64,000 nt of DNA, from contig CAWFKG010000005.1 in the NCBI GenBank assembly GCA_963816365.1, forward strand, positions 351,650-415,649, written 5' to 3'. This DNA is from an uncultured Bacteroidales bacterium. Lineage in GTDB: Bacteria; Bacteroidota; Bacteroidia; Bacteroidales; VadinHA17. Of the stretch, positions 25,242 through 49,573 are shown piece by piece. The position numbers were made by a program, and so were the translations under genes. Under the pieces are notes generated by a model. The model saw only the letters and a list, made by a program, of their open reading frames with translations. It was not told the DNA's origin and did no database searches. Numbering within the stretch: position 1 is the stretch's first letter; the number at the start of each line of letters is the position of its first letter.

Positions 25242-26486
25242 ATGAAAAATTTATTAGCGTCTATCTCCTTAATATTTTGTTTATTACAATTAACTGAGGG
25301 TCAAAAAATAAGCGAATGGCGACCGGAAAACAGAACCGGCGTTTCGGCCGAAACCGGATTGCTTAAATCGTGGCCTGCATCGGGCCCTGCTTTGCTTTGG
25401 TTTAACCAGGATCTGGCTTCAGGCTTTTCATCGGTAACATTTGGGCAAAACTCTATATTTTTGACCGGAATGATTGGCAAAAACGATGTATTATTTGCAT
25501 TAGATACTGTTGGAAAAATAAAATGGCAGGTACCGTATGGTCGTGCCTGGACCGGAGCCACTCCTGAAAGCAGATGTACTCCCACTGTTGAAGGGAACAA
25601 TGTTTATGTATCCAGCGGATCGGGTGATCTGGCATGTGTTGACGCAAATACCGGTAAAATTATCTGGTCGGTTAAAGCAAGTGAAACATACAAAGGAACC
25701 TTTGAACAATGGGGCATTGCGGAATCACTTCTTTTAGATGGAAATAAACTTTATTTCACGCCAGGTGGATCACAGACAATGACAATCGCCCTGGATAAAA
25801 AAACCGGAACTTTAATCTGGAAATCTGCAAGCCTTAAGGATGCTCCCGCCTACGTTTCTCCTATCCTTATTAATTTCAAGGGAAAGAGATTAATAATTAA
25901 TGTTTCAAGCAGTTATATTTTTGCGGTTGATCCTTCAAATGGAAATATAGTATGGAAAATAAAGCATCTTGACATTAACCCCGCAAAAGCTGAAGTAATA
26001 AAATGCGTTACCCCTCTTTATTACGATGGGAAAATTTATGTTACCGGAGGTTATGATCATGGAGCCATAATGCTCAGTTTAACTGACGGCGGCAATAATG
26101 CAAAGGTGGCATGGACAGATAATGTTCTTGATGTGCATCATGGGGGTGTGGTTCTGGTTAACGGTCATATATATGGATCAAACTGGCTGAACAACAACGA
26201 TGGAAACTGGTGTTGCATAGACTGGAATACCGGTAAGAAAAATTATGAAGAGCACTGGAAATGCAAAGGCTCAATCATTTCTGCTGAAGGTATGCTGTAT
26301 ATCTATGATGAACGATCAGGTTTTGTAGGTTTGGTTAAGGCAAATCCTGATAAGTTCGATTTAGTAAGCAGCTTTAAAATATCCAAAGGATCAGGACCCT
26401 ACTGGGCACACCCTGTCATTCATAATAAAAAGCTATACATCCGTCATGGCAAAGCGCTTATGGCCTTCAATATTCAAAGCAATTAA
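25242..26486 (+). CDS. PQQ_2/BamB-like beta-propeller protein 1 (secreted)
   Basis: Signal peptide; WRPENRTG...W N-terminal motif; repeated CVDANTGKIIW and ALDKKTGTLIW blades; WAHPVI...LYIRH C-terminus. Confidence 0.88.
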   Translation: MKNLLASISLIFCLLQLTEGQKISEWRPENRTGVSAETGLLKSWPASGPALLWFNQDLASGFSSVTFGQNSIFLTGMIGKNDVLFALDTVGKIKWQVPYGRAWTGATPESRCTPTVEGNNVYVSSGSGDLACVDANTGKIIWSVKASETYKGTFEQWGIAESLLLDGNKLYFTPGGSQTMTIALDKKTGTLIWKSASLKDAPAYVSPILINFKGKRLIINVSSSYIFAVDPSNGNIVWKIKHLDINPAKAEVIKCVTPLYYDGKIYVTGGYDHGAIMLSLTDGGNNAKVAWTDNVLDVHHGGVVLVNGHIYGSNWLNNNDGNWCCIDWNTGKKNYEEHWKCKGSIISAEGMLYIYDERSGFVGLVKANPDKFDLVSSFKISKGSGPYWAHPVIHNKKLYIRHGKALMAFNIQSN

Positions 26487-26582
26487 TATTCTTAATTTCC
26501 GTTTTTATACGGAATAAAATAAAGTTCAGGAATGCATTATTCTTTATCCAGGTAAAGGTTTGTAAGAGGATAAAAAAAAGAA

Positions 26583-26590
26583 TAGCTTTG
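26583..26590 (+). promoter_or_regulatory. Bacteroidota sigmaA -7 element
   Basis: TAGCTTTG (TAnnTTTG) about 45 bp upstream of 26633. Confidence 0.5.
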
Positions 26591-26632
26591 CGCACTGATG
26601 CGAAAGCATTAAGTATATAGCAGAAGGAGTGG

Positions 26633-28084
26633 ATGATACACGATAAGCAAAGTAAAATTATTATTTCTTTAGTTGTATTAGTTTTTGGAACTGTACTTCT
26701 TTGGTGGATACTTAACCCGCAACCTCTGCCAGTAACCGAAAGGATCCCTGGCATGGACGAACGTCCAAAAATGATTGTCCGTTCAGACACAGTGAATATC
26801 GGAGAATTTTTTGATACTCTCTCGGCGATGGATGAAGTTGTGCCTGGTGACTGGCCACGTTTCAGGGGCAATGATTTTGATAATATAAACAAAGACACAA
26901 CTCCGTTATCAGAGAATTGGGACACTTCCGGACCTTCAATACTCTGGAGAGCAACTCTTGGTGAAGGGTATGCCGGTCCGGCAGTACATAACGGCAGAGT
27001 TTACCTTCTCGATTATAATGAAAGAAAAAAGGCCGATGTGCTGAGATGTTTTTCGCTTTCATCAGGAAAAGAACTCTGGAGGCGGTGGTATTATGTTGAT
27101 CTGAAACGAAATCACGGATACTCAAGAACGATTCCTGCAGTTACCGACAAATATCTTGTTACAATCGGACCACGATCTCATGTAATGTGTGTTGATCCGT
27201 ACAGCGGAAAAATGCTGTGGTCGATTGATCTCGAAAAAGAGTTTGGTATCCCGGGTACAGAGAAAGGAAGAATTACTCCCGACTTTTATACAGGACAATG
27301 TCCCATGATCGATAATGATATAGCTGTTATTGCGCCTGGTGGAAAGGCTCTGATGATAGGTGTGGATTGTGCTTCAGGAAAAATAATCTGGGAAACACCT
27401 AATCCTGATTCCCTGCGAATGTCACATAATTCAATAATGCCAATGACTATTCACGGGAAAAGAATGTATGTATATAATGCAGTCGGGGGAGTATGCGGTG
27501 TATCTGCTGAAAAAGCCGATTTAGGCAAGCTCATGTGGATAACTACTGACTGGAGTCCGGCAACAACCGCAGCCTCACCAATCCTCCTGGGAAATGACGA
27601 AATTGCTGTTTTTGGAAGCTATGGGGCTGGAGGTGCAAGGATCCTTATTAGTAGTACGGCATCGGGTTATTCTGCCACCGTCAGGGAACAGCACAAAGCT
27701 ACAAATGGACTCGCCAGCGATCAACAAACGCCGGTAATCATCGGAAATTATATCTGGAGTGTTCTTCCTGAAAACGCCGGAGCATTGAAAAAGCAGCTTG
27801 TCTGCTATAAAAAGACGGATCTTTTAACAGCTGTGTGGTCGAGCGGCAAAGAATACAGGTTTGGCCGCGGACTAGGACCATATATTGTTAGCGGTGATAA
27901 ATTATATCTTCTGGATGATGACGGAAATCTTTACTTTTATAAGATTCAGGATAACAAAGCCACATTGTTGGCAAGTCATAAAATATTGAAAGGGATTGAA
28001 GCATGGGGCCCAATGGCCATAGCCGGTAAGTACCTCATTATGAGAGATTCACGAAATTTGCTTTGTTTGAATATTGGTAAATGA
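26633..28084 (+). CDS. PQQ_2-like beta-propeller protein 2 (membrane-anchored)
   Basis: N-terminal TM helix; DWPRFRG; GEGYAGPAVHNGRVY; blades SGKELW, SGKMLW, SGKIIW. Confidence 0.88.
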   Translation: MIHDKQSKIIISLVVLVFGTVLLWWILNPQPLPVTERIPGMDERPKMIVRSDTVNIGEFFDTLSAMDEVVPGDWPRFRGNDFDNINKDTTPLSENWDTSGPSILWRATLGEGYAGPAVHNGRVYLLDYNERKKADVLRCFSLSSGKELWRRWYYVDLKRNHGYSRTIPAVTDKYLVTIGPRSHVMCVDPYSGKMLWSIDLEKEFGIPGTEKGRITPDFYTGQCPMIDNDIAVIAPGGKALMIGVDCASGKIIWETPNPDSLRMSHNSIMPMTIHGKRMYVYNAVGGVCGVSAEKADLGKLMWITTDWSPATTAASPILLGNDEIAVFGSYGAGGARILISSTASGYSATVREQHKATNGLASDQQTPVIIGNYIWSVLPENAGALKKQLVCYKKTDLLTAVWSSGKEYRFGRGLGPYIVSGDKLYLLDDDGNLYFYKIQDNKATLLASHKILKGIEAWGPMAIAGKYLIMRDSRNLLCLNIGK

Positions 28085-28091
28085 ACCGAAA

Positions 28092-29012
28092 ATGAAAAAG
28101 AATCTGATAACAATTCTATCCGTGTTGGTTATACTCGCTTTCATTGGGTATATAGTATTTGATTCTGTTAAGCCGTCTCTGGCTGCTAAAAGTGAACCTG
28201 TGACAGTGGAATCTCAGGAGATACCTGATGCCTGGGAGATCTCAAATGTTTTCAAGGTGAGTGAAGGTTCTCTTAAAGCTGTAACAGTGACCCCAAATGG
28301 AGAAATATATCTTGGAGGAACTTCATTCCTTTCGTGTTATGACAAGGATTTGAATCTCGTCTGGAAAAAGAAAACAAAATCACCTGTAACATCGCTCTCA
28401 AATTATGGCGACACAATTTATGCATCAACATCAAGTATGATATATGTCTTGAATTTCGCTGGCAGAATATTAAGCGAATGGGGGCCGTTTGAAGACAGTT
28501 CTCTCATTACTTCATTAAGCTCAAACAGGAAATATGTTGCAGTTGCAGATGCAGGAAATAGAATGGTCTTTATTCTGGATAAAGGTGGTGAGGTTAAGAA
28601 GATGATAGGCCAGAATAAAAAAGAATTTGTTATCCCGAGTCCTTATTTTGACGTGGCCCTCGATAACGACGATAATCTTTTTGTTGCAAATACAGGGAAA
28701 CATCGCATTGAAACCCGGACTATTGATGGTAGCTTAAAAAGTTATTTTGGAGAAGCAGGAACTGCTCCGGGATTGTTTTGCGGGTGTTGTGCTCCTCCAC
28801 ATTTCGCAATCATTCCTGAAGGATTTGTGACAGCTGAAAAAGGAATTAACAGGATCAAGATCCTGAACAAAAAGGGTGAATTCGTTGAGTTCGTCAATTC
28901 AAAAAATAGCTTCGTTAAATCTGTTCCTCTGGATGTGGCTTCCAGTGATGGTAAAATAATTTATGCGGCCAATCCGGCTGACTCGAGACTATATATATTT
29001 AAAAGGAAATAA
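28092..29012 (+). CDS. NHL-repeat-like beta-propeller with CGCC motif
   Basis: VAVADAGNRMV, LFVANTGKHRIE, FCGCCAPPHFA, VTAEKGINRIK; N-terminal TM helix. Confidence 0.75.
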   Translation: MKKNLITILSVLVILAFIGYIVFDSVKPSLAAKSEPVTVESQEIPDAWEISNVFKVSEGSLKAVTVTPNGEIYLGGTSFLSCYDKDLNLVWKKKTKSPVTSLSNYGDTIYASTSSMIYVLNFAGRILSEWGPFEDSSLITSLSSNRKYVAVADAGNRMVFILDKGGEVKKMIGQNKKEFVIPSPYFDVALDNDDNLFVANTGKHRIETRTIDGSLKSYFGEAGTAPGLFCGCCAPPHFAIIPEGFVTAEKGINRIKILNKKGEFVEFVNSKNSFVKSVPLDVASSDGKIIYAANPADSRLYIFKRK

Positions 29013-29029
29013 ATTGATAGAAAAGTACA

Positions 29030-29086
29030 GAGCGAAGTTGCAAACTTTGCTCAGCAAAGGCGAAGATGCAAACTTTGCTTAGCAAA
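29030..29086 (+). repeat. Tandem pair of 26-bp REP-like palindromes, family B
   Basis: GAGCGAAGTT-GCA-AACTTTGCTC-AGC followed by a degenerate copy 28 bp later. Confidence 0.7.
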
Positions 29087-29128
29087 AAAAAACCAGCAAC
29101 TAGAAACCAGTAACCAGCAACATATTTT

Positions 29129-29293
29129 ATGACCAGAAGTGAATTATTAAAAAGACTCGGCAGATACATACTGCTTCTGCTGATTGCTATAATTGCCATT
29201 TCGCTCGGAAAGAAAGTTGTGGGAACAAATGATTGCACAACCTGTGCCGGCAAGGGTATTTGCAACGGCAAAACAGACTGTAATAAGTACTAA
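29129..29293 (+). CDS. Small Cys-rich membrane protein (54 aa; absent from the ORF track)
   Basis: MTRSELLKRLGRYILLLLIAIIAISLGKKVVGTNDCTTCAGKGICNGKTDCNKY; ends 11 bp before the ferredoxin start. Confidence 0.75.
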   Translation: MTRSELLKRLGRYILLLLIAIIAISLGKKVVGTNDCTTCAGKGICNGKTDCNKY

Positions 29294-29304
29294 ACAGACC
29301 ATAC

Positions 29305-29874
29305 ATGAAGGCCGGCAAAAATAAATATCAGTCAAGACGCGATTTTGTGAAAGCTGCAGGAAAGGTGATTGTGACGATACCCCTGATAATAATCCCGGCC
29401 TTTCTTGCAAAAAAAACTTCTGCTTCCGGTTATGTCTGGCAGATCGACCCGTTCAAATGCACGCAATGCGGTCAGTGCAAAACCAATTGTGTCCTTACTC
29501 CTTCTGCCTCAAAATGTGTTCACGCGTTCAGGATGTGTGGTTATTGCGACCTCTGCGGCGGCTATCTCCGCCAGGGAGTTAAAACTATAAGTACAGGCGC
29601 AGAAAACCAGCTATGTCCTACCGGAGCAATTACCCGAAAATTCGTAGAAGAACCGTATTTTGAATATACCATCAATGAAAAGCTATGTGACGGTTGCGCT
29701 AAATGTGTCAAGGGATGCGGCGATTTCGGGAATGGATCACTTTATATGCAGATCCGGCATGACAGGTGTCTGAACTGCAATGAATGCTCGATTGCACGAA
29801 CCTGCCCTTCGAATGCAATTTCAAGAATTCCTGCCAGGATTGCATATTTACCTAAAGACGCACCCAAAAAATAA
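29305..29874 (+). CDS. Polyferredoxin with twin-arginine signal (NapG/MauM-like role)
   Basis: SRRDFVK followed by a hydrophobic stretch; CTQCGQCKTNC, CGYCDLC, CPTGAI, CDGCAKCVKGC, CLNCNEC..CP. Confidence 0.85.
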   Translation: MKAGKNKYQSRRDFVKAAGKVIVTIPLIIIPAFLAKKTSASGYVWQIDPFKCTQCGQCKTNCVLTPSASKCVHAFRMCGYCDLCGGYLRQGVKTISTGAENQLCPTGAITRKFVEEPYFEYTINEKLCDGCAKCVKGCGDFGNGSLYMQIRHDRCLNCNECSIARTCPSNAISRIPARIAYLPKDAPKK

Positions 29875-29895
29875 AAAAGAAATCCATTAACCGCA

Positions 29896-29985
29896 GCTGG
29901 CGCCGATTTGTAATCGGTGCCGATTAGGAAAACAAGGAACAATAAACGTATCAGAACCAGGCACGGATTTCAAATCCGCGCCAGC
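29896..29985. repeat. Inverted REP doublet (REPIN-like), family A
   Basis: Minus-strand copy at 29896-29921 and plus-strand copy at 29960-29985. Confidence 0.85.
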
Positions 29986-30008
29986 AATAAGAAACGCAGA
30001 ACAATTTA

Positions 30009-31355
30009 ATGACTCAATTCCAAAAATATAACCGTATTAACCCCCCTTTAGGGACGCAGGGGGGCAAATTCGCTAAGGGGGGCCAATCCCGAAAGAAAAC
30101 CTTACCATATATATTATTTGTACTGCTTTTATGCTGGCACGTGGTTCTCTTTGCCCAGGACAGGTTTCCGAGACCTGAATTTGAATCAGGTCATATCTAT
30201 CCCACCAACCAGATGCCGGTGCCCAGGGCCCAGGTACTGGAGTACCTTGATGTTGTGGTTTTGATCGGTGCGTTGATATTAACCACCTGGCTGGCATTGA
30301 AAAAGCGTTCACGACGGGGCCTGATCTGGATGTCGGTGTTTTCGGTGGCATATTTCGGTTTCTACAGACAAGGCTGTATCTGTTCGGTAGGATCGGTTCA
30401 GAATGTATCACTGGCATTGTTTAATACCGGCTACTCGATTCCGGTTACAGCACTTCTTTTCTTTATTATTCCGCTCCTCTTCGCTCTTGCTTACGGACGT
30501 GTATTTTGCGCGGGAGTTTGTCCGCTTGGTGCCATTCAGGAATTAACCGGTTTAAAGCCCGTCAAACTGCCAAAACCTGTGGAAGTGATCCTTGCATTTG
30601 TACCTTTTATTTATCTCGGGATTGCAATATTGTTTTCAGCCACAAACAGTCAGTTCATGATCTGCAAATATGATCCTTTTGTTGGTATTTTCAGACTTGA
30701 TGCCCCCTATACAATGATAATATTTGGAGCCTTGCTGCTTCTGGCAGGAATATTTGTCAACAGGCCATATTGCAGATATCTGTGTCCTTACGGAGTCCTT
30801 CTCAATATCTTTTCACGGTTTGCAGGGAAACATCTGACAATAACACCAGCTGAATGCACGAATTGCCGGCTTTGTGAGGAAGCATGTCCCTATGATGCCA
30901 TCCTCCCTGCTGATACTGATCAGACCAGGGAAGAACCTGAGAGATCAAGAAAAAGGTTTATTCTCTACTTTATTCTTGTGCCAGTCTTCGCAATCAGCGG
31001 AGCATTTTTACTTTATAACCTCGCTCCTGCCTTGTCAGGTGCAAACAGTACTGTCAGGCTGGCAAGAGAGATCAGAAGTGAGAAAAAAACCGGGCTTGAA
31101 ACAACCCTGAAAGATGTTGTTGCATTCAAAGAATCGGGAAAAACAGAATCCGAGCTATTCAAGGATGAAGAGGTGATAATTAATCGATTCATAAAAGGTT
31201 CACCCTGGGCCGGCGCATTTCTTGGAATTTCATTCGGCCTCGGAATGATCTCACTGACAATTAGAAGTAAGAGAAGTGAATATAAGCCACATCAGGGGAA
31301 GTGTTATAGTTGCGGGAGATGTTTTAAATATTGTCCAATTAAAGTGAAAGTTTAA
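30009..31355 (+). CDS. Integral-membrane 4Fe-4S protein (NapH/MauN/NosR-C-terminal family)
   Basis: FCAGVCPLG and YCRYLCPYG (CX3CP), CTNCRLCEEACP, C-terminal CYSCGRCFKYCP, multiple TM helices. Confidence 0.88.
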   Translation: MTQFQKYNRINPPLGTQGGKFAKGGQSRKKTLPYILFVLLLCWHVVLFAQDRFPRPEFESGHIYPTNQMPVPRAQVLEYLDVVVLIGALILTTWLALKKRSRRGLIWMSVFSVAYFGFYRQGCICSVGSVQNVSLALFNTGYSIPVTALLFFIIPLLFALAYGRVFCAGVCPLGAIQELTGLKPVKLPKPVEVILAFVPFIYLGIAILFSATNSQFMICKYDPFVGIFRLDAPYTMIIFGALLLLAGIFVNRPYCRYLCPYGVLLNIFSRFAGKHLTITPAECTNCRLCEEACPYDAILPADTDQTREEPERSRKRFILYFILVPVFAISGAFLLYNLAPALSGANSTVRLAREIRSEKKTGLETTLKDVVAFKESGKTESELFKDEEVIINRFIKGSPWAGAFLGISFGLGMISLTIRSKRSEYKPHQGKCYSCGRCFKYCPIKVKV

Positions 31356-31356
31356 A

Positions 31357-33052
31357 ATGAAGATTGCTTTAACTGAAAAAGATATCCGGGTTCTGAAAGT
31401 TGTCAGTCAGATTGCAGGAGGATTTGCGCTTATCGTTGCTCTGACCATGATCTTCGCTCTGATCCAGTTAAAAACTGTGAATCCGTTGGATAATCCGGTT
31501 TTGCTTTCGGTGAAGGAGCAGTATGACAAGGACCCGTCAGATGCTGCAAAAGCGGCACAGGTCAGAGCCATGGATCTTATGGCCCGGAAAGCCTATTTCA
31601 GTTCAAGGTGGCAGGTTGAAGCCGGTTCATATCTTCTTATTGCAGGAGTCATTGTATTCATAATATGTCAGAGACTTATTACGGAAAATGAAAAACTCAA
31701 CCCGGTACTCACTGATGCAAAACCCAGCGCCATATTGAATCGCGAGAGGAACAGAAAATATCTCATTTCTACTGTCACCGTAGTTTTTATATTAGCTGTT
31801 GCAGCATCTTTTTATCTTCGTGCGGATCTTCCCGATATATCGGGCAATTCTTCACGAACTGCAAAGAGTGAAGGAGGAGGAGACGATAGAGCTTCTAAAC
31901 CTGATAAAACAAACTGGCCATTTTTCCGCGGACAGGATAGTCGTGGAATTGCAGGCGGTTCAGGTTATCCGACCGAGTGGAATGGAGAATCGGGAAAGAA
32001 TATTGAATGGAAACTGGAGGTGCCCGGAAGAGGAAAGAGCTCTCCTGTTATATGGGGTGATAAGATTTTTATTACAGGTGCGAAGGATAAGGTCTGTGAA
32101 ATATATTGCATCGATAAGAATAACGGGAAAATTTTGTGGACCGGTTCTGCCTCTAATATTCCGGGAGAACCTGCTGTATCTCCAAAGACCGATGCTGAAG
32201 CTGGTCTGGCTGTATCAACAGTAGCTTCAAATGGCAAAGTTGTTTGTGCTGTTTTTGCAAATGGCAACCTGGCCTGCTTTGATTTGGATGGAAAACAGCT
32301 CTGGGCAAAAAATATAGGGGTCCCTGAGACCAGTTACGGTTACTCATCATCCCTGCTCATATATAAAGATATTCTGATTGTCCAATTCGATAGCAATTCC
32401 AAAATATCACTTAATGGATTTGATCTGGGAACCGGTGCATCAGAAATGGGAAACTCTCCGGCAGGGACGTGCAGTATGGTCATCTCCGGTACTCGGGTAT
32501 TTTAACGGCAAAACTCAGGTAATAATAAACGGTAATCCTTCCGTCAGTAGTTATGATCCGGTTACCGGAACCGAACTCTGGGAAATAGAATGTATGAGCG
32601 GTGATGTTGCGCCATCAGTAGCAGTTAACAGCACCCTTGCATATGCTGTAACTGATTATGCAAAGCTTGCAGCAATTAAACCCGGTAATGGAGTCTCAAT
32701 TGCCTGGGAAGACAATACTTATACTCCTGATGTATCGAGCCCGGTTGCTACAGATAAGTTCTTATTCCTGTCAACAGGAAATGGGGACGTTGCCTGCTAC
32801 AATGCATCGAAAGGAGATACAGTCTGGACTCATTATTTCCAGGATCCGTTTTATGCCTCACCTATAATTGCAGATGAAATGGTTTATCTGCTTGACAGAG
32901 CTGGTATCATGCATATAGTCAAAGCAGGAGATAAATTCACTCATATCGGTGATTCTCCTCTTGGTGAAAGCGCCGATTGCTCACCTGCCTTTTCCGACAA
33001 GAAAATTTATATCAGGGGAACGAAAAACCTCTATTGTATTTCGAAGAATTGA
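31357..33052 (+). CDS. PQQ_2-like beta-propeller protein 3 with N-terminal TM helices (frameshift near 32437)
   Basis: Three TM segments, NWPFFRG, SSPVIWGDKIF; continues in ORF 32378-33052 (KWETLR...WSSPV...IYIRG). Confidence 0.85.
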
Positions 33053-36551: not shown

Positions 36552-36606
36552 TGCGTGCTAGCATATATTAGTTTTATATAAGCACGGATTACAAATCCGC
36601 GCCAGC
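36534..36606. repeat. Inverted REP doublet, family A
   Basis: Degenerate minus copy at 36534-36559 (contains the TAA stop of the 35451 gene) and plus copy at 36581-36606. Confidence 0.8.
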
Positions 36607-39143: not shown

Positions 39144-39348
39144 AAGCAATTGAGTGACATACATATACGTTCGCTGGCGCGGATTTGCAATCCGTGCCAT
39201 TATGCAAACTAGGACCGAGGAGATGAAGGGGCACAGATAACAACCGGGCAGATGCAGGGGCACGGATTGCAAATCCGCGCCAGCATTATAGTAAAGTTTT
39301 TTTTCCAGAATGGATCACTAAGTAAAGGCAACCGAGACATACATATAC
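39139..39348. repeat. Inverted REP doublet (family A) flanked by imperfect direct repeats
   Basis: REP copies at 39173-39198 (-) and 39259-39284 (+); flanks AGTAAAAGCAATTGAGTGACATACATATAC (39139-39168) and AGTAAAGGCAACCGAGACATACATATAC (39321-39348). Confidence 0.8.
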
Positions 39349-39356
39349 CAAAATAG

Positions 39357-40031
39357 ATGCTTTTAGTAAAAAATATTTCAAAATCCTTTATTCAGCGCGG
39401 TTTAGTTCTCGATAATCTTTGTCTTGACGTGGCCGAGGGAGAGACTATCGCCATAATGGGTCCATCGGGTTCGGGGAAAACGACCCTTATGAATATCATA
39501 GGGTTGCTGGATAAGCCCGATTCAGGTGAAATATCTTTCAGAGGTGCTGCAATAGCGGGATTTTCAGAGGATGAATCGGCTGATTACAGGAACAAAAATA
39601 TCGGTTTTGTATTTCAGGACCATCACCTCCTGCCATATCTTACCGTTTCTGAAAATATATACCTCCCGCTTCTGGCTTCAAAGCATTCAAAGGAAGACCT
39701 TTCTGCAAGTCAGGACTATTTGGAGGAACTGATGGAGAAGACCGGCATTTCTGATCTGAAAGACAAATATCCCTTCAGGATATCAGGCGGAGAATCTCAA
39801 CGGGTTGCGCTGGTCAGGGCGTTGGCAAACAAGCCTTCAATCATTCTTGCAGATGAACCAACAGGTTCGCTAGATGCAAGAAATGCAGAAATTCTGGGCG
39901 AACTCCTTGTACGAACGAGTGTAGATTTTGGCAAAACAATCATTCTCGCCACTCATTCAATCAGTCTGGCTAAAAAGATGTCAAAAATATTGTACCTGAA
40001 AGAAGGTGTCCTGAAAGTCTCAGCAGATTAA
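39357..40031 (+). CDS. ABC transporter ATP-binding protein (LolD/MacB-type)
   Basis: GPSGSGKT, ISGGESQR, ILADEPTGSLD, LATHS. Confidence 0.94.
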   Translation: MLLVKNISKSFIQRGLVLDNLCLDVAEGETIAIMGPSGSGKTTLMNIIGLLDKPDSGEISFRGAAIAGFSEDESADYRNKNIGFVFQDHHLLPYLTVSENIYLPLLASKHSKEDLSASQDYLEELMEKTGISDLKDKYPFRISGGESQRVALVRALANKPSIILADEPTGSLDARNAEILGELLVRTSVDFGKTIILATHSISLAKKMSKILYLKEGVLKVSAD

Positions 40032-40047
40032 CAGAACAATTACTATC

Positions 40048-43000: not shown

Positions 43001-43308
43001 TTCTGCTGAGAAATTATAACCAGCGAAAACATGAATTTGCCCTGCTTCTTGCTACAGGGTTTCATATAAAACAGATACGACAAATGATTCTCAGTGATCA
43101 GGTTCTGATACTCTTTGCCGGAGTATCATCCGGTATCATTTCTGCTATTGCTGCAACTTCGGTTTCGATACAGAGCAACCCGGGCATACCATGGCTGTTT
43201 CTGATCATCATGATACTGGCAATTCTTGCAACAGGCATAGTTGCCTTGTTATTGTCGGTACGGTCTGTAACAAGGACTTCCTTAATATCGAGCTTAAAGA
43301 ATGAATAG
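40048..43308 (+). CDS. Large FtsX/MacB-type ABC permease (1086 aa)
   Basis: AVITGSLLTGSSV, two TM blocks with LFALGF and RKHEFALLLATGF motifs, large extracytoplasmic domains with SCSGWD and DASCLNL. Confidence 0.85.
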   Translation: MLSIKLAIQSIKFYKRQVVNQVLIIVLLTAVITGSLLTGSSVKESLRRTASHRLGNADIVISSENRYFSRDLGIRMHAKSGISSTGLLETKGYCQVLNNQKGSFNTNIYGITKDFFGFQGFDTINLKPGEIIINSKLAGILGAKQGDDIMIRYKEISYIPSDAPFAPSKDESKSLVMKIGRILPPDQIGSFSLSISQITPSNIFVNLSDLEDTPDNSLKINRLLIKQISSNSVKKVSQELKTSLRLSDIGLKLRKVAKTGEYELISDRIFIDKSIINEIDKILPNSSPVITYLGNKFVAGSEFTPYSFVSALPAALYPEIPGDNGMIINRWMAEDLSAGVGDTIQIYWYSPDSLKQLIERNSRFIIKKVVDMKGIWSDSLLMPDFPGISGKESCSGWDAGVMIKTDEIRNKDEQYWKRYRGTPKAFIAYEKGRELWGNNFGPATAVRYPAGLTAIQITDKLEGSLDPAYMGFIVTDLADESLKAANTGVDFGSLFLSLGFFLIVASLVLLSFAASSYFYSKRDHINTLFALGFKNRQILQLLFMESGLIALTGCFAGAFSGYLVTLAIAGALNSVWKGAVQTDTIGAFFNLLPISYGFLLTFFTIMTLMFVKIKRYLNRLTISRMEKYTIPSAAQNAILVSVSAIITVSLFIMASKFSSLRMLFSFSAGAMLLITLMLSWRQYFVSRTVRSRISIKNRKQLSHLYYSFNPSIAVTPILFIAAGIFTVFITGANRMNFNEKQMNKSGGTGGYLLWCESSVPVMADPNTLPGRKTLGFDSDQLSGMSFVLLKRSAGNDASCLNLNHIMSPPILGVDPEVFIKNKSFSFAGSVAVKKLANPWEYLNLPPMHNTIYGIADQTVLDWGLKIKTGDTLVMRAENGQLLNIIIAAGLQSSVFQGNVLIGVRNFTIFYPSVPGSQVMLVDGDRSLIDIYKNSIAERLENYGMDIEKTSDRLASFYQVTNTYLSVFGIFGALGMVIGIAGLGFVLLRNYNQRKHEFALLLATGFHIKQIRQMILSDQVLILFAGVSSGIISAIAATSVSIQSNPGIPWLFLIIMILAILATGIVALLLSVRSVTRTSLISSLKNE

Positions 43309-43314
43309 TGATGA

Positions 43315-44673
43315 TCACTTTTTCCCCACCCCGACAAGATACTTCTGAGTTCTGAAAATAATCATGCCATCTGTAATTGCCGGAGCAGTCATACAGGTGT
43401 CATTCATAGGTATTTCAGCCAGAAGCTTAAAACTTTCACCGTCCTGTAAAACATATATTGTTCCCGCCTCATCTACAACATATATTTTACCGTCTGAGGC
43501 GACAGGAGAAGCGATAAAGCTGTTTGCCTTACCAAGCTTTGCATTATAGATCTCTTTTCCGGTAAGTGGGTCGAGACAAATAATGGTCCCATTCCAGTTT
43601 ACATTATAGAGGTGATTCTTATACAGCAGCAAGGTATGCATATACGAACCACCCCTGGGCAGGCTCCATTTTATATATTCATTGGATGTTTCTGTTTCTT
43701 TCAGGGTAATATCTCCGACAGCATTTGTCTTAACCGCTATTATAGGTGAATATCGCCCGTGTGCGCTATTAAAGTATATCAGGTCATTTCCTACAATTGG
43801 CGTCGGTATCTGTATATCTCCGCCACCTGACATTTTCCAGACTTCTTTTCCTGTTTCAAAATCATATCCGCCTCTGTTTTTATATCCATTAAGTGCAACA
43901 TAGGTCTTGCCGGCGTTTGTATAGATATTCGGAGTACACCATCCGGGATACTCATCACGTTGCGTTTTCCAGAGCTCTTTTCCTGTTTTAACGTTGTAGG
44001 CAGCAACAAAAGAGTTCTCAAGAACATCGCACTGGACGATCAGCACACCTTTATATATAACAGGAGAACTGGCAAATTCCCATTCTGCAGATTTTACTGC
44101 AAAGAAAACGGACCGCAGCAGTCCGAAGTTTTTCTGCCATACAAGATTGCCTTTCATGTCATAGCAAAAAAGGCCTTCAGACCCAAAAAAAGCAACGACG
44201 TACTTTCCATCAGTGGCGACTGAGGTGTTTGCATGGGTTGATTTTGGATGACGTTTCATCCTGGGTATTCCTTTAAATGAGGTTCTCTCCCAAAGGGTCT
44301 TCCCGGTATTTTTATCAATGCAAAATACTTTCCATTCGTGCACAGATGAGTCTTTTACCGGAGTAATGTCGCCATAAATACCGGGCTTGAATCCTGCTTT
44401 ATCAGCCTGACCGATAGCACTTGTTATGAATATTTTATTATCCCATATCACCGGGCTGGATAGTCCGAGACCAGGTATTTCCCTCTTCCACCTTACGTTG
44501 ATCATGTTGAGTATGTCGAAGGATTCGGGAAGGTTTGCATTATCGAGAACGCCGGAAGAGAAATTCCCTCGATAAGAGGTCCATTGCCTGTCAGGATTAA
44601 CCTGACCGGATGTCTCAATGACCGAAAAACCTATAAATGAAAATAATAGTACAAATGCCAGGTACTTTTTCAT
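43315..44673 (-). CDS. PQQ_2-like beta-propeller protein 5
   Basis: Signal peptide, QWTSYRG, IPGLGLSSPVIW, TPNIY, APAITDGMIIFRTQKYL. Confidence 0.88.
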   Translation of the reverse strand: MKKYLAFVLLFSFIGFSVIETSGQVNPDRQWTSYRGNFSSGVLDNANLPESFDILNMINVRWKREIPGLGLSSPVIWDNKIFITSAIGQADKAGFKPGIYGDITPVKDSSVHEWKVFCIDKNTGKTLWERTSFKGIPRMKRHPKSTHANTSVATDGKYVVAFFGSEGLFCYDMKGNLVWQKNFGLLRSVFFAVKSAEWEFASSPVIYKGVLIVQCDVLENSFVAAYNVKTGKELWKTQRDEYPGWCTPNIYTNAGKTYVALNGYKNRGGYDFETGKEVWKMSGGGDIQIPTPIVGNDLIYFNSAHGRYSPIIAVKTNAVGDITLKETETSNEYIKWSLPRGGSYMHTLLLYKNHLYNVNWNGTIICLDPLTGKEIYNAKLGKANSFIASPVASDGKIYVVDEAGTIYVLQDGESFKLLAEIPMNDTCMTAPAITDGMIIFRTQKYLVGVGKK

Positions 44674-46037: not shown

Positions 46038-46065
46038 AGTATTATGGGGATTTTAAGAATCCAGT

Positions 46066-47463
46066 CTATTTCTTATTTGTCAGCTTTCCATTATTCATCC
46101 ATAACGTCACACGGCCCATTCTGTCGAATGGCGGATAGGCATGCATATCTCCAGTCACAAAATCCATTAATCCGTCATTATTGAAATCACCCATTTCGAG
46201 AGTTAAAATATGAGTGGGAGAATTTGCTATATTATGAACGACATATTGCATGTTTCCTGTGTTCTCCAGCCAGATAAAACTTTGAGATTCAGGCTTATCC
46301 CACAAGTTAAATGCGCTAACGCAAAATATGTCCAGATCGCCATCATTATCTATATCAACCGGCCGTGCATTATAAGCTCCTATGAAATTGCAGATCCTGT
46401 GGAATTCAAACTTAAGGTTACCCTTGTTTTCAAGCCATTGAACTCCATGCCAGGGTTTACCTCTTGGCGGAATGTAATCAAATGCATCTCCGTTAGTATA
46501 TAGTATATCGTCATCACCATCTTTATCAAGATCGCAGATATAAATCCCGCTGGAACCAAAGTCTTCATTATCAGAGCCCCATATCAGCTTTGATGTAAAA
46601 TTCCCTTTCCCGTCATTAATAAAACCATAGATCTCCTCCCACTCCTGGCTGACAAGTGAAATTATGTCGAGATCACCATCTTTATCAATATCGACAGGAA
46701 TGACATTAATAGGACCTGAGAGATTCTGCAGGACATGGCTTTTGAATTGCCAGTTTCCCAGGTTCTCAAGCCATTGTGTTTCACCATCATCATATCCGAA
46801 TTGTGCAAGTGCAAGATCAAGATCTCCATCCTTATCAAAATCCCCAGCCCTGACATCTGAAACACGAGCCGTCTTTTCGATAGCTACATGTTTTTTAAAA
46901 TGATTCTTCCCGTCGTTTTCGAGAATAACAACTGAGCCTATTTTATCATTACTTGGGAATATCAGTCCCAGAACTGCAACCAGGATGTCGTTATCACCAT
47001 CCTTGTCAAAATCAACTACCTGAACATGAGCCGGGGCATTCAGGCTATCTGCAATGACTGTTTCTGTGAATACGCCGGCCGGATATTGTCTTATCCAGTT
47101 AACCGAGTTACTTCTGCAATCACAAACGATTATGTCCATTAAACCGTCTTTATCAAGGTCGGCTGCTTCAACATTTGATATCATCGGAGCTTCAGTAAAC
47201 TTCTGACCTACAGGCATCGGGTTTAGAAAATCTATTTTTGCTCCCACAGTGTTGGCTTTGAGCTCTACAGATTCCTTGTTTTTTGCACCTGATTTATTTA
47301 TAATCCGGTTCATGACTTCCCTCCGGGTCATACCTTTTTGTTTGGCCTGGTAACTGATCAACAGATACGGGATTCCAATAATAAGAAATAACACTATAAC
47401 TAATAAAATAAGGTTTTTCAGACCCTTTTTACGATTTCCCGGAGAAGGTTTATTTTTTGCCAT
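46066..47463 (-). CDS. FG-GAP/VCBS repeat beta-propeller, membrane-anchored
   Basis: Seven Ca-binding DxDxDGxxD loops (DLDKDGLMD, DFDKDGDND, DFDKDGDLD, DIDKDGDLD, DLDKDGDDD, DIDNDGDLD, DFNNDGLMD). Confidence 0.88.
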   Translation of the reverse strand: MAKNKPSPGNRKKGLKNLILLVIVLFLIIGIPYLLISYQAKQKGMTRREVMNRIINKSGAKNKESVELKANTVGAKIDFLNPMPVGQKFTEAPMISNVEAADLDKDGLMDIIVCDCRSNSVNWIRQYPAGVFTETVIADSLNAPAHVQVVDFDKDGDNDILVAVLGLIFPSNDKIGSVVILENDGKNHFKKHVAIEKTARVSDVRAGDFDKDGDLDLALAQFGYDDGETQWLENLGNWQFKSHVLQNLSGPINVIPVDIDKDGDLDIISLVSQEWEEIYGFINDGKGNFTSKLIWGSDNEDFGSSGIYICDLDKDGDDDILYTNGDAFDYIPPRGKPWHGVQWLENKGNLKFEFHRICNFIGAYNARPVDIDNDGDLDIFCVSAFNLWDKPESQSFIWLENTGNMQYVVHNIANSPTHILTLEMGDFNNDGLMDFVTGDMHAYPPFDRMGRVTLWMNNGKLTNKK

Positions 47464-47625
47464 AAGCTGTATTTAGTATTAGGGAGAAGAAAATATTAAC
47501 CTCAAAAATAATCTAAATGTGCTTTATGACAGCATCGTATTGAAATAAATTAATTATTATTGAAAATTGAAGAATTCTCTTTTGGGATTTGTGGAAATCA
47601 GAAAATTTTATGTTATTGTTCTAAT

Positions 47626-49573
47626 ATGAAAGTCACCGGAAGGCATATTCTTAATCTATTAATAATCTTTGGGTTTGGACTGGTTTCAGCTTTGATATGC
47701 CAATCATTCACTGAAAAACCAACCAGCCGCCATATTCATATAAGAAGTTTCCGGTATGGAAAGGATCCGTATGTAATAAAATGCAACAGAGGGTGATACG
47801 CTAATTCTGACCTTTTCAACTGATGACACCGGGCATTCATTTTTTCTTCAGGAATTTGATAAAGATGTTAAGATCACTCCCTCCAGTGATGAAGTAGCAG
47901 TTTTTAAGACAAGTGATCCTTCTGCTCAACCTCTTCTTGAAAAAGAAGTTACAATTGTAGCCAGGCATCCTGGTATCAGTAATTATATAGTATCGAAAAG
48001 CAATTACCGCTGTCATGTATGGTGTGGTCCCATGCATGCTTTTGAACAGGGCAAGCTAATAATATTACCCAATACTTTGCTTGTCTTCAGTCTGGGCAGT
48101 CTCTTCGGAATATTATTTATCTGGCTTGTATCTGTTTTCAGAAATGCAGTTCCGGAAATAAGCAGCAATGATGAGAAAGCCGGCTACAAAGATCTGCTAA
48201 AAAAATCAGGCTTTTTAAAAGGTGTTGCAACATCAAGATATACACAGGCAACGCTTACCATTATTACTATGGTAATGATTTATATCGTAATTCTGACATC
48301 GGTTTTTGGTACCAAAGTGTCAGGCAGAAACCTCGGGGTGCTTTTAATGTGGGCGGTCTGGTTATTTGCCCTGGTAGCAATTATTACTCCATTTTTTGGA
48401 AGATTCTGGTGTACGATCTGTCCTCTGCCTTTTTTCGGAGATCTGATTCAGCGTAAATCATTCTTTAATCCTCTGAAAGGAAAAACAAGAAGCTATAACA
48501 ATAAATTTTCAGGCCTCTTTCTCAAATGGCCCGATTGGTTAAAAAATGACTGGCTTAGATTGCTGGTCTTTCTGGTGCTTGCAACTTTTTCCACGACACT
48601 TGTTGCAACTCCATTTATATCGGGCATCACAGTGCTGATGCTAATGATTGTACCCACGATAATGTCGGGGATCTGGGAACTAAGAGCATTCTGCCGGTAC
48701 GTATGTCCGGTGAGTGTTTTTGTTGCGCCTTTTTCGAGGGTGAGTACTTTATCTCTCCGTAATAAATCACAGGAAGTATGCAATCAGTGCAAACCGCATT
48801 ATTGCGAGAATGGGAATACAAACGGATGGGCATGCCCTTATGGATTGAATGTCGGTGAGATTAAAGAAAATACGGATTGCGGCCTGTGTCTCGAATGTAT
48901 ACGAAGCTGCTCATATAATAATGTCTCACTTTTTGCACGACCCTTTGCATCTGAGATGGGAACGCGTAATCTGAGTGAGGCATGGATGTCAATGGCAACG
49001 TTTACAATATCAATCATTTATAGTATATTGTATCTTGGCCCCTGGCCCGTGGTTCGCGATTATGTGAATATCCTTGACAAGCATAACTGGGGTCTATTCG
49101 GAATATATTCACTGTTAATGTGGACCTCAGTATTGATCATTATTCCAGGAATTATTTATTTTCTGTCCCGGCTTGGCCTCCTCATGGCAGGAATTAAAGT
49201 TGGTGCAAAGGATTTATTTCTGGAATATGCCGGATCTCTTCTTCCTTTTGCCATGATGAACTGGATAGCTTTTGTGATACCGATGCTCTTTGTCAATGTC
49301 ACTTTCATAAAGCAATCAATATCTGATCCTTTTGGCTGGGGATGGGATTTCTTTGGTACGGCTAATACTCCCTGGCATCAGTTCCTGCCGCAGTTTGTTC
49401 CATGGTTTCAGGCATTTGCAGTACTAATTGGATTATACCTTAGCTTAAGGAATATAAGAAGGTCCGGAAAATTTTTGGATTTGAATCAGGCTCAGGTTTT
49501 AAAGGTAAGCTTACCAATCAGTCTGTTTCTATCAGGAGCGGCAGCAGCAATGCTGTTCTTCTTTACAAATTAA
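47626..49573 (+). CDS. CuA-like cupredoxin domain fused to a polytopic 4Fe-4S membrane protein (frameshift near 47792)
   Basis: Removing one G at 47791-47793 joins MKVTGRH...PYVIKCNR to GDTLILTFSTDDTGHSFF...YRCHVWCGPMHAFEQG, which is open into ORF 48032 (WCTICP, FCRYVCP, CNQC..C..CP..CGLCLECIRSC). Confidence 0.82.

What the first reader, a model, noticed from the sequence alone, without database searches (positions are those of the whole stretch)
25242..49573. About 24-kb orphan redox locus linking a cytoplasmic bifurcation-type NADH module to membrane ferredoxins and a set of extracytoplasmic beta-propellers
Seen: a co-oriented run (25242-43308, with several overlapping or abutting genes) of propeller, propeller, NHL(CGCC), Cys-rich micro-protein, Tat polyferredoxin, NapH-like membrane Fe-S protein, 3TM-propeller, NuoE/F fusion, NuoG-like Fe-S relay, propeller, GT4(CxxC), ABC ATPase and a 1086-aa permease. 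It is followed by two more propellers, an FG-GAP propeller and a CuA-ferredoxin fusion. Established: NapG/NapH pairs move electrons between the quinone pool or cytoplasm and periplasmic enzymes, and HydB/C-type modules normally serve a catalytic subunit (H-cluster, NiFe, Mo/W). No such catalytic subunit, no multiheme cytochrome c and no pqq genes are present here. Inference: this is an uncharacterised trans-envelope electron conduit whose terminal catalysts or scaffolds are the propeller proteins, possibly acting on a glycosylated compound made by the GT4 and moved by the ABC system. I know of no characterised pathway with this gene set.
Basis: partly seen in the sequence, partly recalled or inferred. 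Interest (0 to 1): 0.9.

Follow-up and report, generated by a model that had tools for sequence, protein, structure and literature searches.

The report
Conserved Bacteroidales periplasm-directed redox gene cluster
A block of about 13 genes, kept in the same order in many anaerobic Bacteroidales, joins an NADH/ferredoxin-type flavoprotein module to a membrane and periplasmic iron-sulfur relay and to a set of cofactor-less propeller proteins; its substrate is unknown and it appears not to have been described.

Summary
The gene run is real. Pfam and NCBIfam confirm every label except the 'CuA' part of the last gene. The '3TM-propeller' is one gene, broken in this assembly by a single extra base at 32438.

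The order g02/g03-NHL-(micro-protein)-polyferredoxin-NapH-like-TM-propeller-NuoEF-FeS protein-propeller-GT4-ABC-permease recurs in 11 of 12 relatives. It also recurs in most of 100 further loci, including cultured Perlabentimonas gracilis.

The NapH-like gene has orthologues in 72 of 401 sampled genomes of the order and in 0 of 400 others of the phylum.

NuoEF plus the FeS protein is a Bfu-type module; the closest solved relatives are NfnB/NfnA. It has no catalytic domain. One clade of 9 loci has lost it and kept the rest.

The conserved unit ends at g14/g15. The genes at 44676-49573 are neighbours only in close relatives.

The terminal reaction remains unknown. No haem, Mo or Cu site and no PQQ-enzyme signature is found; the only candidates are invariant cysteines.

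The parts
25242..26486 (+). g02: secreted PQQ_2-type beta-propeller (414 aa). One to four paralogues sit at this end of the cluster in relatives.
   Evidence: PF13360 E 5e-23. BamB and PQQ-enzyme NCBIfam scores are far below their cut-offs. Paralogue numbers.
26633..28084 (+). g03: N-terminally membrane-anchored PQQ_2-type propeller (483 aa) with four conserved Cys (139, 186, 223, 391).
28074..29012 (+). g04: membrane-anchored six-bladed NHL propeller (312 aa) with an invariant vicinal Cys238-Cys239 in the motif F-C-G-C-C-N/A-P-x-H-F.
   Evidence: AF2 model with pLDDT 89.7 shows a TM helix at 9-32 plus a propeller. Foldseek top hits are TRIM2/Brat NHL domains.
29129..29293 (+). g05: 54-aa protein with one TM helix and a tail carrying C-x2-C-x5-C-x5-C. 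Arg3 and all four Cys are kept in at least 95% of 53 sequences.
   Evidence: No family hit. Not detected by tblastn in some loci.
29305..29874 (+). g06: twin-arginine (SRRDF) exported polyferredoxin. Its 16 conserved Cys are enough for four [4Fe-4S] clusters.
   Evidence: TatC is present in the genome.
30009..31355 (+). g07: NapH-like integral membrane Fe-S protein (448 aa, about 8 hydrophobic segments). It has two CX3CP motifs, two CxxCxxCxxxCP motifs, and invariant Cys123, Cys125 and Cys219 in loops that I place on the outer face.
   Evidence: No structural relative in the PDB: 0 hits at E <= 0.001. The outer-face placement is my inference.
31357..33052 (+). g08: three-TM plus PQQ_2 propeller gene, split here into two frames by one extra base at 32438.
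33131..35458 (+). g09: BfuC-BfuB (NuoE-NuoF) fusion. It holds a NuoE [2Fe-2S], an extra [2Fe-2S], the FMN/NADH site, an N3-type [4Fe-4S] and two C-terminal [4Fe-4S].
   Evidence: The best solved relative is NfnB, E 1e-204. All ligand Cys are kept in 99-100% of 74 sequences.
35451..36551 (+). g10: BfuA-like Fe-S protein without any catalytic domain. It has Fer2_4, a GltD-N-terminal Fer4_20 and a Nqo3-type ferredoxin domain. Orthologues in other families are 484-550 aa and carry a Rossmann Pyr_redox_2 insert.
36620..37726 (+). g11: secreted PQQ-like propeller (368 aa). It has more conserved positions than the other whole propeller genes of the set.
   Evidence: PF13570, 192 bits against a cut-off of 133. 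Conservation.
37839..39143 (+). g12: cytoplasmic GT4 glycosyltransferase with a conserved N-terminal G-S-G-G-S-F-Y-C-x-N-C motif, plus His143 and Cys166.
   Evidence: Its position varies (after g14 in L125 and L135) and it is missing next to the cluster in L124 and L129.
39357..40031 (+). g13: LolD/MacB-type ABC ATPase.
40048..43308 (+). g14: 1086-aa permease with two FtsX domains and two large extracytoplasmic domains (about 41-493 and 731-968).
   Evidence: No solved relative by sequence.
43315..44673 (-). g15: convergent secreted PQQ_2 propeller. It is a probable, looser member of the cluster.
   Evidence: A propeller of this type follows g14 in 9 of 10 relatives with sequence there, and in several loci.

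Best explanation
The locus is one conserved, operon-like unit of anaerobic Bacteroidales. It encodes an electron path from the cytoplasm to the periplasm.

Proposed steps:
1. A Bfu-type flavoprotein module oxidises NADH, and probably reduced ferredoxin as well. The module is g09 (a NuoE-NuoF fusion) plus g10 (a BfuA-like Fe-S protein that has lost its catalytic domain).
2. Electrons pass to the cytoplasmic [4Fe-4S] motifs of the NapH-like membrane protein g07.
3. They cross the inner membrane to the Tat-exported four-cluster polyferredoxin g06.
4. In the periplasm the acceptor-side machinery takes over. It consists of membrane-anchored and soluble cofactor-less propellers (g02, g03, the NHL protein g04 with a vicinal Cys-Cys, g08, g11, g15) and the four-Cys micro-protein g05.
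5. The GT4 (g12) and the MacB/Lol-type ABC system (g13/g14) serve the same process. I suggest they make and handle a glycosylated envelope component.

I think the end use is a periplasmic reductive reaction run on cysteine and Fe-S chemistry. It could be an electron sink for fermentation, or reductive upkeep of the propeller assembly.

Shown: gene content, conserved order, conserved cluster ligands, predicted topology and phyletic range.
Inferred: every electron-transfer step, the direction of flow, and the terminal reaction.
For: Synteny. The same order is seen in 11 of 12 relatives fetched around the g09 orthologue. It is seen in the 80 best genome-contig loci found through g07. In 20 loci from other families of the order, 15 keep g06-g11 contiguous and 17 have g09-g10 after g08. 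Of the 100 loci, 51 hold all nine core genes; I did not check what limits the other 49 (contig ends, fetched range or real loss).

Interleaving. g09-g10 lie between two propeller genes in 66 of 75 loci, and gaps between genes are short or negative.

Bfu identity. The best solved relatives are NfnB (E 1e-204), Stn/HydB-type subunits and NfnA. All ligand cysteines are kept in 74 orthologues. The family framework comes from PMC9304861 (passages read).

No catalytic domain. Pfam finds none in g10.

Topology. The RR motif is conserved in g06 and TatC is present. Signal or anchor segments are present on all propellers.

Independence from other enzymes. Hydrogenase and Mo-enzyme genes lie elsewhere, several with their own NuoF-like genes.

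Range. The g07 orthologue occurs in 72 of 401 genomes and 53 of 236 genera of the order, and in 0 of 400 others of the phylum.
Against: No step of electron transfer is demonstrated.

One clade (9 of 75 loci) has g08 abutting g11 with no g09-g10. The five genomes of that clade that I searched hold no full-length g09 orthologue. So the rest of the cluster works without the NADH module.

One genome has the g06-g07 pair without the other cluster genes; only a weak (31% identity) g13-like ABC ATPase match lies in its 21-kb locus (L086). Three of 20 distant loci stop after g07 or g08. GT4 placement varies. The modules are therefore separable.

The propellers show no conserved His-rich or cofactor-type site. 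The NHL model resembles binding domains, not enzymes.

No outer-membrane partner was found, no expression data exist, and the acceptor is unknown.
Confidence: 0.5

Rival explanations
1. Assembly or maintenance machine. The propellers, GT4 and ABC system build an envelope structure or glycoconjugate. The Fe-S relay only supplies a trickle of electrons to keep cysteines reduced or to mature a site. This would parallel NosGH/NosR plus NosDFY serving the NosZ propeller. That comparison is recalled, not tested here.
For: - There are many paralogous scaffold-like propellers without cofactor sites.
- A GT4 and a mechanotransmission-type ABC lie in the same conserved block.
- The NADH module is dispensable in one clade.
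Against: Every characterised Bfu enzyme named in the passages of PMC9304861 that I read is a catabolic redox enzyme (hydrogenase, Nfn, formate dehydrogenase); that such enzymes carry high flux is my own reading, not stated there. The module is retained in 66 of 75 loci. No structural product is known.
Confidence: 0.25
2. Two or three independent systems that merely travel together: (i) the polyferredoxin/NapH pair with the Bfu module, (ii) the propellers, and (iii) GT4 plus ABC.
For: - L086 has g06-g07 without the other cluster genes; its only other match is a weak g13-like ATPase hit.
- L127 and L128 lack g11-g14 next to g10, and L123, L126 and L138 end after g07 or g08.
- The GT4 moves or is missing in some loci.
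Against: The order is kept at 28-60% protein identity across many families, with redox and propeller genes interleaved. ORFs inserted into the cluster are unrelated mobile or defence-type genes and do not mark module borders.
Confidence: 0.15
3. Inward flow. The propellers oxidise a periplasmic donor, and electrons run through g06/g07 to the Bfu module. The module then bifurcates them to NAD+ and ferredoxin.
For: Bfu enzymes are described as reversible (PMC9304861 abstract, listing; passages). PQQ-like folds are present.
Against: The PQQ-dehydrogenase model scores 17-73 bits against a cut-off of 480. No haem motifs are present. The pqqC search found nothing, but its control was silent too. No catalytic site is evident.
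Confidence: 0.05
4. The NuoEF/FeS pair really serves a hydrogenase or formate dehydrogenase encoded elsewhere.
For: g10 resembles the N-terminal Fe-S part of HydA, NfnA and FDH alpha subunits.
Against: The pair is embedded in the cluster in 66 of 75 loci. In this genome a NuoF-like gene at C10:433119 lies next to the hydrogenase domain at C10:435284. Another at C10:183835 lies next to C10:181952. Another at C15:695275 lies next to the Mo-enzyme piece at C15:692701.
Confidence: 0.03

Closest known systems
NapGH / NosGH / MauMN pairs (a Tat polyferredoxin plus a NapH-family membrane Fe-S protein)
   Same: g06 has an RR signal and 16 Cys, enough for four clusters. g07 has two Fer4_5 CX3CP motifs and two ferredoxin motifs, and its best NCBIfam hits are NapH/MauN, NosR and NapH. 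The genes are adjacent, as in those systems (recalled).
   Different: g07 scores 61.8 bits against the NapH/MauN cut-off of 213 and 52.4 against 234 for NapH. It has about 8 hydrophobic segments and a C-terminal extension with a third Cys motif. No Nap, Nos or Mau enzyme is nearby. The donor module is a Bfu flavoprotein and not, or not only, the quinol pool.
Bfu family of electron-bifurcating enzymes (NfnABC/Stn, HydABC)
   Same: g09 holds the BfuC and BfuB cofactor set, and g10 holds the BfuA N-terminal clusters. The best solved relatives are NfnB (9n5u_B), Stn-type subunits (9bov, 8oh5) and NfnA.
   Different: BfuC and BfuB are fused. g10 has no H-cluster, pterin or NADP/FAD catalytic domain here; a single Rossmann piece survives in other families. 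The presumed third partner is a NapH-type membrane protein. The passages of PMC9304861 that I read do not mention that arrangement. The supplements, which list the clades, could not be opened.
Nitrous-oxide reductase accessory set (NosR or NosGH with NosDFY serving the NosZ propeller)
   Same: The architecture is analogous: a periplasmic propeller, a polyferredoxin/NapH-type electron supply and an ABC system in one cluster. This comparison is recalled, not tested.
   Different: There is no cupredoxin or His-rich copper site. The ABC permease is FtsX-type. The propellers are of the PQQ_2 and NHL types.
MacB / LolCDE / DevCA-type ABC systems
   Same: g13 best matches LolD, FtsE, MacB and DevA ATPases. 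g14 has two FtsX domains with large outer domains.
   Different: All scores are below the curated cut-offs. No MacB_PCD domain is detected in g14, whereas another permease in the window (8908-11280) has one. No membrane-fusion or outer-membrane partner is in the cluster.
PQQ-dependent dehydrogenases and BamB
   Same: The fold family is shared (PF13360, PF13570, PF01011 hits).
   Different: Scores are 17-73 bits against 480 for the PQQ alcohol-dehydrogenase model and 26-138 against 285 for BamB. These are paralogues of neither.

Membership tests
Bfu (BfuBC core plus BfuA) | NuoF-type FMN/NADH domain and N3-type [4Fe-4S] | tested here: met
   PF01512 and PF10589 hit. Cys631, 634, 637 and 677 are kept in 100% of 74 sequences.
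Bfu (BfuBC core plus BfuA) | Extra N-terminal [2Fe-2S] and two C-terminal [4Fe-4S] in BfuB | tested here: met
   A 2Fe-2S ferredoxin-like stretch lies at 174-252. Cys174, 175, 205 and 209, and the two CxxCxxCxxxC sets at 723-733 and 753-763, are kept in 99-100% of sequences.
Bfu (BfuBC core plus BfuA) | NuoE-type [2Fe-2S] subunit (BfuC) | tested here: met
   PF01257 covers residues 9-143 and is fused to BfuB. Cys70, 75, 112 and 116 are invariant.
Bfu (BfuBC core plus BfuA) | BfuA with N-terminal [2Fe-2S] and [4Fe-4S] clusters | tested here: met
   PF13510, PF14691 and PF22117 hit. There are 15 invariant Cys in 37 sequences. NfnA and 9bov_A match residues 1-171.
Bfu (BfuBC core plus BfuA) | Electron bifurcation or confurcation with NAD(H) and ferredoxin | not testable with these tools
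   This needs enzyme assays.
[FeFe]-hydrogenase HydA | H-cluster domain (PF02906) | tested here: not met
   The domain is absent from g10 and from all other locus proteins. It is present elsewhere in the genome.
NapH/MauN (TIGR02163) and NapH (NF007013) | Curated whole-protein score | tested here: not met
   61.8 bits against 213.05, and 52.4 against 234.
NapH/MauN (TIGR02163) and NapH (NF007013) | Two CX3CP motifs and two ferredoxin-type Cys motifs on a polytopic membrane protein | tested here: met
   Cys167/171-Pro, Cys255/259-Pro, the set 283/286/289/293 and the set 432/435/438/442 are invariant in 43 sequences. Hydrophobic segments.
NapG/MauM-type periplasmic polyferredoxin | Tat signal plus four [4Fe-4S] motifs | tested here: met
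   RR-x-F and 16 Cys are conserved. However, no NapG/MauM NCBIfam model was among the hits at E <= 0.001, so membership by model is not shown.
PQQ-dependent alcohol dehydrogenases (TIGR03075) | Curated score; PQQ supply | tested here: not met
   The best score is 73 bits against 480. The pqqC search found nothing, but its control was silent too, so the PQQ supply part is inconclusive.
BamB (TIGR03300) | Curated score | tested here: not met
   26-138 bits against 285.
   Only Fer4_5 is hit at E <= 0.01. The protein has only 4 His.
MacB/LolCDE-type ABC | FtsX permease domain(s) with a large periplasmic domain and a LolD/MacB-like ATPase | tested here: inconclusive
   FtsX is found twice and the ATPase is LolD-like at 210 bits against a cut-off of 308. 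MacB_PCD is not detected. No solved relative was found by sequence.

The most novel reading that the evidence does not exclude
This is the first Bfu-type enzyme wired to a NapH-family membrane protein. It funnels NADH and ferredoxin electrons across the inner membrane to a periplasmic polyferredoxin. The acceptors are cofactor-less propellers that work through vicinal-cysteine and Fe-S chemistry. That would be a previously unrecognised periplasmic electron sink for fermentative Bacteroidales. Possible substrates are organic disulfides, polysulfide or quinone-like humic matter.
Probability: 0.2. Interest if true: 0.85.

Novelty: new variant of a known kind. Interest (0 to 1): 0.62.

Why it matters
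The carriers are uncultured and cultured anaerobic Bacteroidales. Their record titles name bins from fen, peat (SPRUCE), anaerobic-reactor and biofilm samples among others. I did not establish how abundant they are in any habitat.

If the cluster exports reducing power, it would add a cytochrome-free and molybdenum-free route by which fermenters dispose of electrons. That could affect hydrogen and methane budgets in such habitats.

It would also give a physiological partner to one of the Bfu clades whose third substrate is unknown. PMC9304861 states that 17-18 clades are unassigned. It could also offer a handle on how NapH-family proteins move electrons across the membrane, for which I found no solved structure.

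Even on the modest reading, this is a deeply conserved 13-gene unit with no literature found, and a cultured carrier is available for testing.

Tried and rejected
- Complex prediction of g07 (residues 29-448) with g10, each as an alignment, gave no answer: scores 0.00 and 0.26 against a mark of 0.32, and the controls were not run. I do not use it as evidence either way.
- Sequencing runs: no RNA holder was listed. All 24 runs are DNA contigs with word shares of 0.18 or less, so co-transcription could not be examined.
- Promoter scan: 54 sites found against 49.7 +/- 6.4 expected, which is uninformative. Of the 29 terminator-like sites (15.5 +/- 4.2 expected), none is a strong + strand site between genes.
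- Foldseek of the g07 model (pLDDT 79.8) found no hit at E <= 0.001. phmmer of g07 against the PDB matched only NuoI-type ferredoxin stretches. g14 had no PDB relative.
- ESM Atlas: for g04, hits were only uncharacterised or NHL clusters, mostly Bacteroidota. For the N-terminal 185 residues of a g08 orthologue, only unnamed clusters were found.
- Context of the lone g06-g07 pair (L086), and of ORFs inserted into or replacing parts of the cluster in L119, L122, L123, L126, L127, L128, L132, L136 and L138: no catalytic partner turned up. The ORFs included an AbiV-type HEPN protein, a YhcG nuclease, a pentapeptide protein, BipA, ThiF, OmpH, GT2, phosphoglucomutase and others.
- The pqqC search matched nothing in this genome, but its control was silent too.
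- Literature. Six full-text searches returned no paper describing this gene set. From their listings I opened only PMC9304861 (passages only).
- I considered and dropped two labels. The propellers are not true PQQ dehydrogenases or BamB, because their scores are far below the cut-offs. The last gene is not a CuA protein.

Full report
WHAT IS THERE. The window is G000:C5:351650-415649 of a 4.84-Mb, 18-contig genome. Its closest named relatives are uncultured Bacteroidales bins. Between 25242 and 43308 thirteen genes lie on the + strand, with gaps of -11 to +213 bp. Pfam and NCBIfam give the following:
- g02 and g03: PQQ_2-type propellers.
- g04: an NHL-like protein.
- g05: a 54-aa protein with one hydrophobic helix and four Cys.
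- g06: a twin-arginine polyferredoxin.
- g07: a NapH-like Fer4_5 membrane protein.
- g08: a three-TM propeller.
- g09: a NuoE-NuoF fusion with an extra [2Fe-2S] stretch and two C-terminal [4Fe-4S] motifs.
- g10: an Fe-S protein with Fer2_4, Fer4_20 and Nqo3-type ferredoxin domains.
- g11: a PQQ-like propeller.
- g12: a GT4.
- g13: a LolD-like ABC ATPase.
- g14: a 1086-aa permease with two FtsX domains.
Convergent genes follow: two more PQQ_2 propellers (g15, g16), an FG-GAP protein (g17), then a Fer4_5 membrane protein (g18). None of the 20 translated ORFs has a CxxCH motif. No H-cluster or molybdopterin domain occurs in the locus.

CORRECTIONS TO THE OBSERVATION. (i) g08 is read in two frames here. 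A relative that is 94% identical over the gene (L039) lacks one base at window position 32438, which restores a single frame. Contigs of all four metagenome runs laid on the gene also lack a base there: at 32438 in X1, X2, X4 and one X3 contig, and at 32440 in a second X3 contig. In 78 relatives the gene is one ORF of 512-649 aa. So this is an assembly error or a strain-specific frameshift, not two genes. (ii) The 'CuA' label of g18 has no support: only Fer4_5 is hit, and the protein has 4 His. (iii) g16-g18 follow the cluster in only 2 of 8 relatives with enough downstream sequence, whereas a g15-type propeller follows g14 in 9 of 10.

IS IT ONE UNIT? I fetched up to about 28 kb (one or two stretches) around the g09 orthologue in 12 relatives. 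Eleven have the same genes in the same order. The twelfth (G039) is a 10.9-kb contig holding only g09-g10, and its g07 orthologue lies on another contig. The best 80 loci are all titled Bacteroidales, Bacteroidota or Rikenellaceae-type bins, plus the cultured Perlabentimonas gracilis M08_MB. Nearly all of these loci show the same order as far as their contigs reach.

In even samples, a g07 orthologue (E <= 1e-50) occurs in 72 of 401 genomes and 53 of 236 genera of the order, and in 0 of 400 other genomes of the phylum. I took 20 loci from further genomes of the order, with protein identities of 28-60%. Fifteen keep g06-g11 contiguous. Seventeen have g09-g10 directly after g08. Three stop after g07 or g08. 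ORFs inserted into the block are unrelated: an AbiV-type HEPN protein, a YhcG nuclease and a pentapeptide protein. Over all 100 loci, 51 hold all nine core genes. Redox and propeller genes are interleaved, so this is not a juxtaposition of two operons.

THE CYTOPLASMIC MODULE. The best solved relative of g09 is NfnB of an Nfn-Bfu transhydrogenase (9n5u_B, E 1e-204, query residues 167-772). Stn-type and HydB subunits follow. Residues 1-171 of g10 match NfnA and the alpha subunits of 9bov and 8oh5, and residues 246-359 match HydA Fe-S domains. All cysteines expected for the BfuC [2Fe-2S], the extra BfuB [2Fe-2S], the N3-type cluster and the two C-terminal clusters are kept in 99-100% of 74 orthologues. 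This fits the Bfu family as defined in PMC9304861, of which I read passages only. That paper also says that 17-18 BfuB clades have no assigned third substrate.

g10 has no catalytic domain. In other families its orthologue is 484-550 aa and keeps a single Rossmann Pyr_redox_2 piece between the Fer4_20 and C-terminal Fe-S domains. I therefore infer that the module derives from an Nfn-type BfuA that lost its nucleotide-binding part.

The genome's other NuoF-like genes sit beside hydrogenase or molybdopterin-enzyme genes. C10:433119 lies by C10:435284. C10:183835 lies by C10:181952. C15:695275 lies by C15:692701. The second refutation criterion therefore fails too.

THE MODULE CAN BE LOST. In 9 of 75 loci that cover both g08 and g11, the two genes abut (gap -18 to +88 bp) with no g09-g10. 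These nine form an exclusive clade in a g07 tree (94 tips, support 0.995, midpoint root). Five of their genomes hold only the roughly 40-57% paralogues, not a full-length orthologue. Two of those genomes have the same coordinates as G008 and G024, which places the loss inside the window's own genus. More distant families keep the module, so a single loss is the simplest reading. The remainder of the cluster stays intact after the loss. It must then draw electrons from another donor; the quinol pool would be the precedent from NapGH (recalled).

THE MEMBRANE AND PERIPLASMIC PART. g06 keeps its RR-x-F motif and 16 Cys in at least 95% of 76 sequences, and TatC is present in the genome. g07 has two CX3CP motifs and two CxxCxxCxxxCP motifs that are invariant in 43 sequences. 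It also has three invariant Cys (123, 125, 219) and an R-F-P-x-P-E-F motif in loops that, from the hydropathy pattern, I place on the outer face (the topology is my inference). Its score is far below the curated NapH cut-offs. Neither sequence nor fold search finds a solved relative.

All propellers carry a signal peptide or an N-terminal anchor. Their conserved residues are mostly Gly, Trp and Asp of the repeat scaffold. The exceptions are four Cys in g03; Cys238-Cys239 in g04 (motif F-C-G-C-C-N/A-P-x-H-F, invariant in 36 sequences); His161 and Cys196 in g11 (Cys196 in at least 93% of 78 sequences; His161 in at least 95% of the 63 closer sequences but below 93% once the distant families are added); and the four Cys of g05. 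The g04 model (pLDDT 89.7) is a TM helix plus a six-bladed NHL propeller, and its nearest structures are TRIM2, Brat and Thin NHL domains, not enzymes. Scores against the PQQ-dehydrogenase and BamB models are far below the cut-offs.

THE GT4 AND ABC PART. g12 is a GT4 whose nearest solved relatives are a GT1-family fragment, PimB' and BshA-type enzymes, all only at the C-terminal domain. Its N-terminal G-S-G-G-S-F-Y-C-x-N-C motif, His143 and Cys166 are conserved. g13 and g14 are of the LolD/MacB/DevA type. g14 has two large outer domains but no detectable MacB_PCD domain. The position of g12 varies, and it is missing next to the cluster in some loci.

HOW IT MOST LIKELY WORKS. Confidence is 0.5, and every step is inferred. 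NADH, and probably reduced ferredoxin, are oxidised at g09. Electrons leave through g10 to the cytoplasmic clusters of g07. They cross the membrane to g06, which reduces something held or formed by the propeller set. No haem, Mo, Cu or corrinoid site is encoded, and the only invariant redox-capable residues outside the Fe-S proteins are cysteines. I therefore favour thiol/disulfide or persulfide-type chemistry, or reduction of a small quinone-like acceptor bound by the PQQ-like folds.

Rivals are given in the Rival explanations section:
- a low-flux maintenance or assembly role on the Nos model (0.25);
- independent syntenic systems (0.15);
- inward electron flow (0.05);
- a hidden hydrogenase or FDH partner (0.03).

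COMPARISON AND NOVELTY. The parts belong to known kinds: the Bfu core, a NapGH-like pair, a MacB-type ABC, and PQQ_2 and NHL propellers. I did not find the combination described in six full-text searches or in the passages read from PMC9304861. The supplementary clade tables of that paper were not available to me. I rate it a new variant of a known kind. The bolder reading, a new cytochrome-free periplasmic electron sink, gets a probability of 0.2.

LIMITS. There are no expression data. The one complex prediction gave no answer. No outer-membrane component was identified. Nothing outside Bacteroidota was searched for the whole cluster.

Noticed in passing
window 32438: A single extra base splits the TM-propeller gene into two frames. 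A 94%-identical relative lacks it, and so do contigs from all four metagenome runs laid (a second X3 contig lacks a base at 32440 instead). It is probably an assembly indel, but could be a real frameshift in this strain.
   Followed up: yes
L113:14735-16345, L129:7001-8650 and other distant loci: The g10 orthologue is 484-550 aa in other families and carries a single Rossmann Pyr_redox_2 piece. That piece is absent from the 366-aa form here and from the 323-327-aa forms in L124, L125 and L135. This suggests stepwise loss of a nucleotide-binding domain from an NfnA-like ancestor.
   Followed up: partly
window 49951-50655 (- strand): A DUF2490 protein with an N-terminal signal-like segment lies just downstream of the cluster, here and in 7 of the 12 relatives. 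It was not matched in the 20 distant-family loci. Its role and location are unknown.
   Followed up: partly
window 48032-49573: A second Fer4_5 polytopic membrane protein (513 aa, about 8 hydrophobic segments, 12 Cys) is conserved next to the cluster only in the closest relatives (81-84% identity in G016 and G007). It is a separate NapH-family paralogue of unknown role.
   Followed up: partly
G024:C3:74076-76424 (the same place as G820:C3) and G015:C21:2552-4897: A second full-length NuoE-NuoF-fused paralogue (40-41% identity) carries one in-frame stop: TGA in G024 and TAG in G015. It could be a selenoprotein, a pseudogene or an assembly error.
   Followed up: no
L029 (G004:C4:574400-594399): Almost every gene of the cluster is broken into several frames in this 5-contig genome. 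The pattern looks like indel errors of a long-read assembly, not gene decay.
   Followed up: no
L119:14184-14930 and L136:9770-10771: Defence or mobile-type genes (an AbiV-type HEPN protein and a YhcG PDDEXK nuclease) are inserted between cluster genes without disturbing the order.
   Followed up: partly
window 29129-29293: The N-terminus of the four-Cys micro-protein reads (S/N/T)-R-x-(D/E)-F-(L/F/I)-K in most orthologues, with Arg3 nearly invariant. This resembles a one-arginine variant of the Tat motif (the motif is recalled). If it is real, the peptide would be exported folded, perhaps with a metal or cluster.
   Followed up: no
window 8908-11280, 20864-22984 and 53470-57435: Further efflux-type systems lie in the window: a MacB_PCD/FtsX permease; an ABC ATPase with a HlyD-type protein; and a HlyD-MFS-OEP set. 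They are unrelated to the cluster in relatives.
   Followed up: no
G000:C5:429497-430717 (about 14 kb beyond the window end): A 677-aa molybdopterin-family ORF lies on the same contig, outside the window. It is not adjacent to the cluster here, and its context in relatives was not examined.
   Followed up: no
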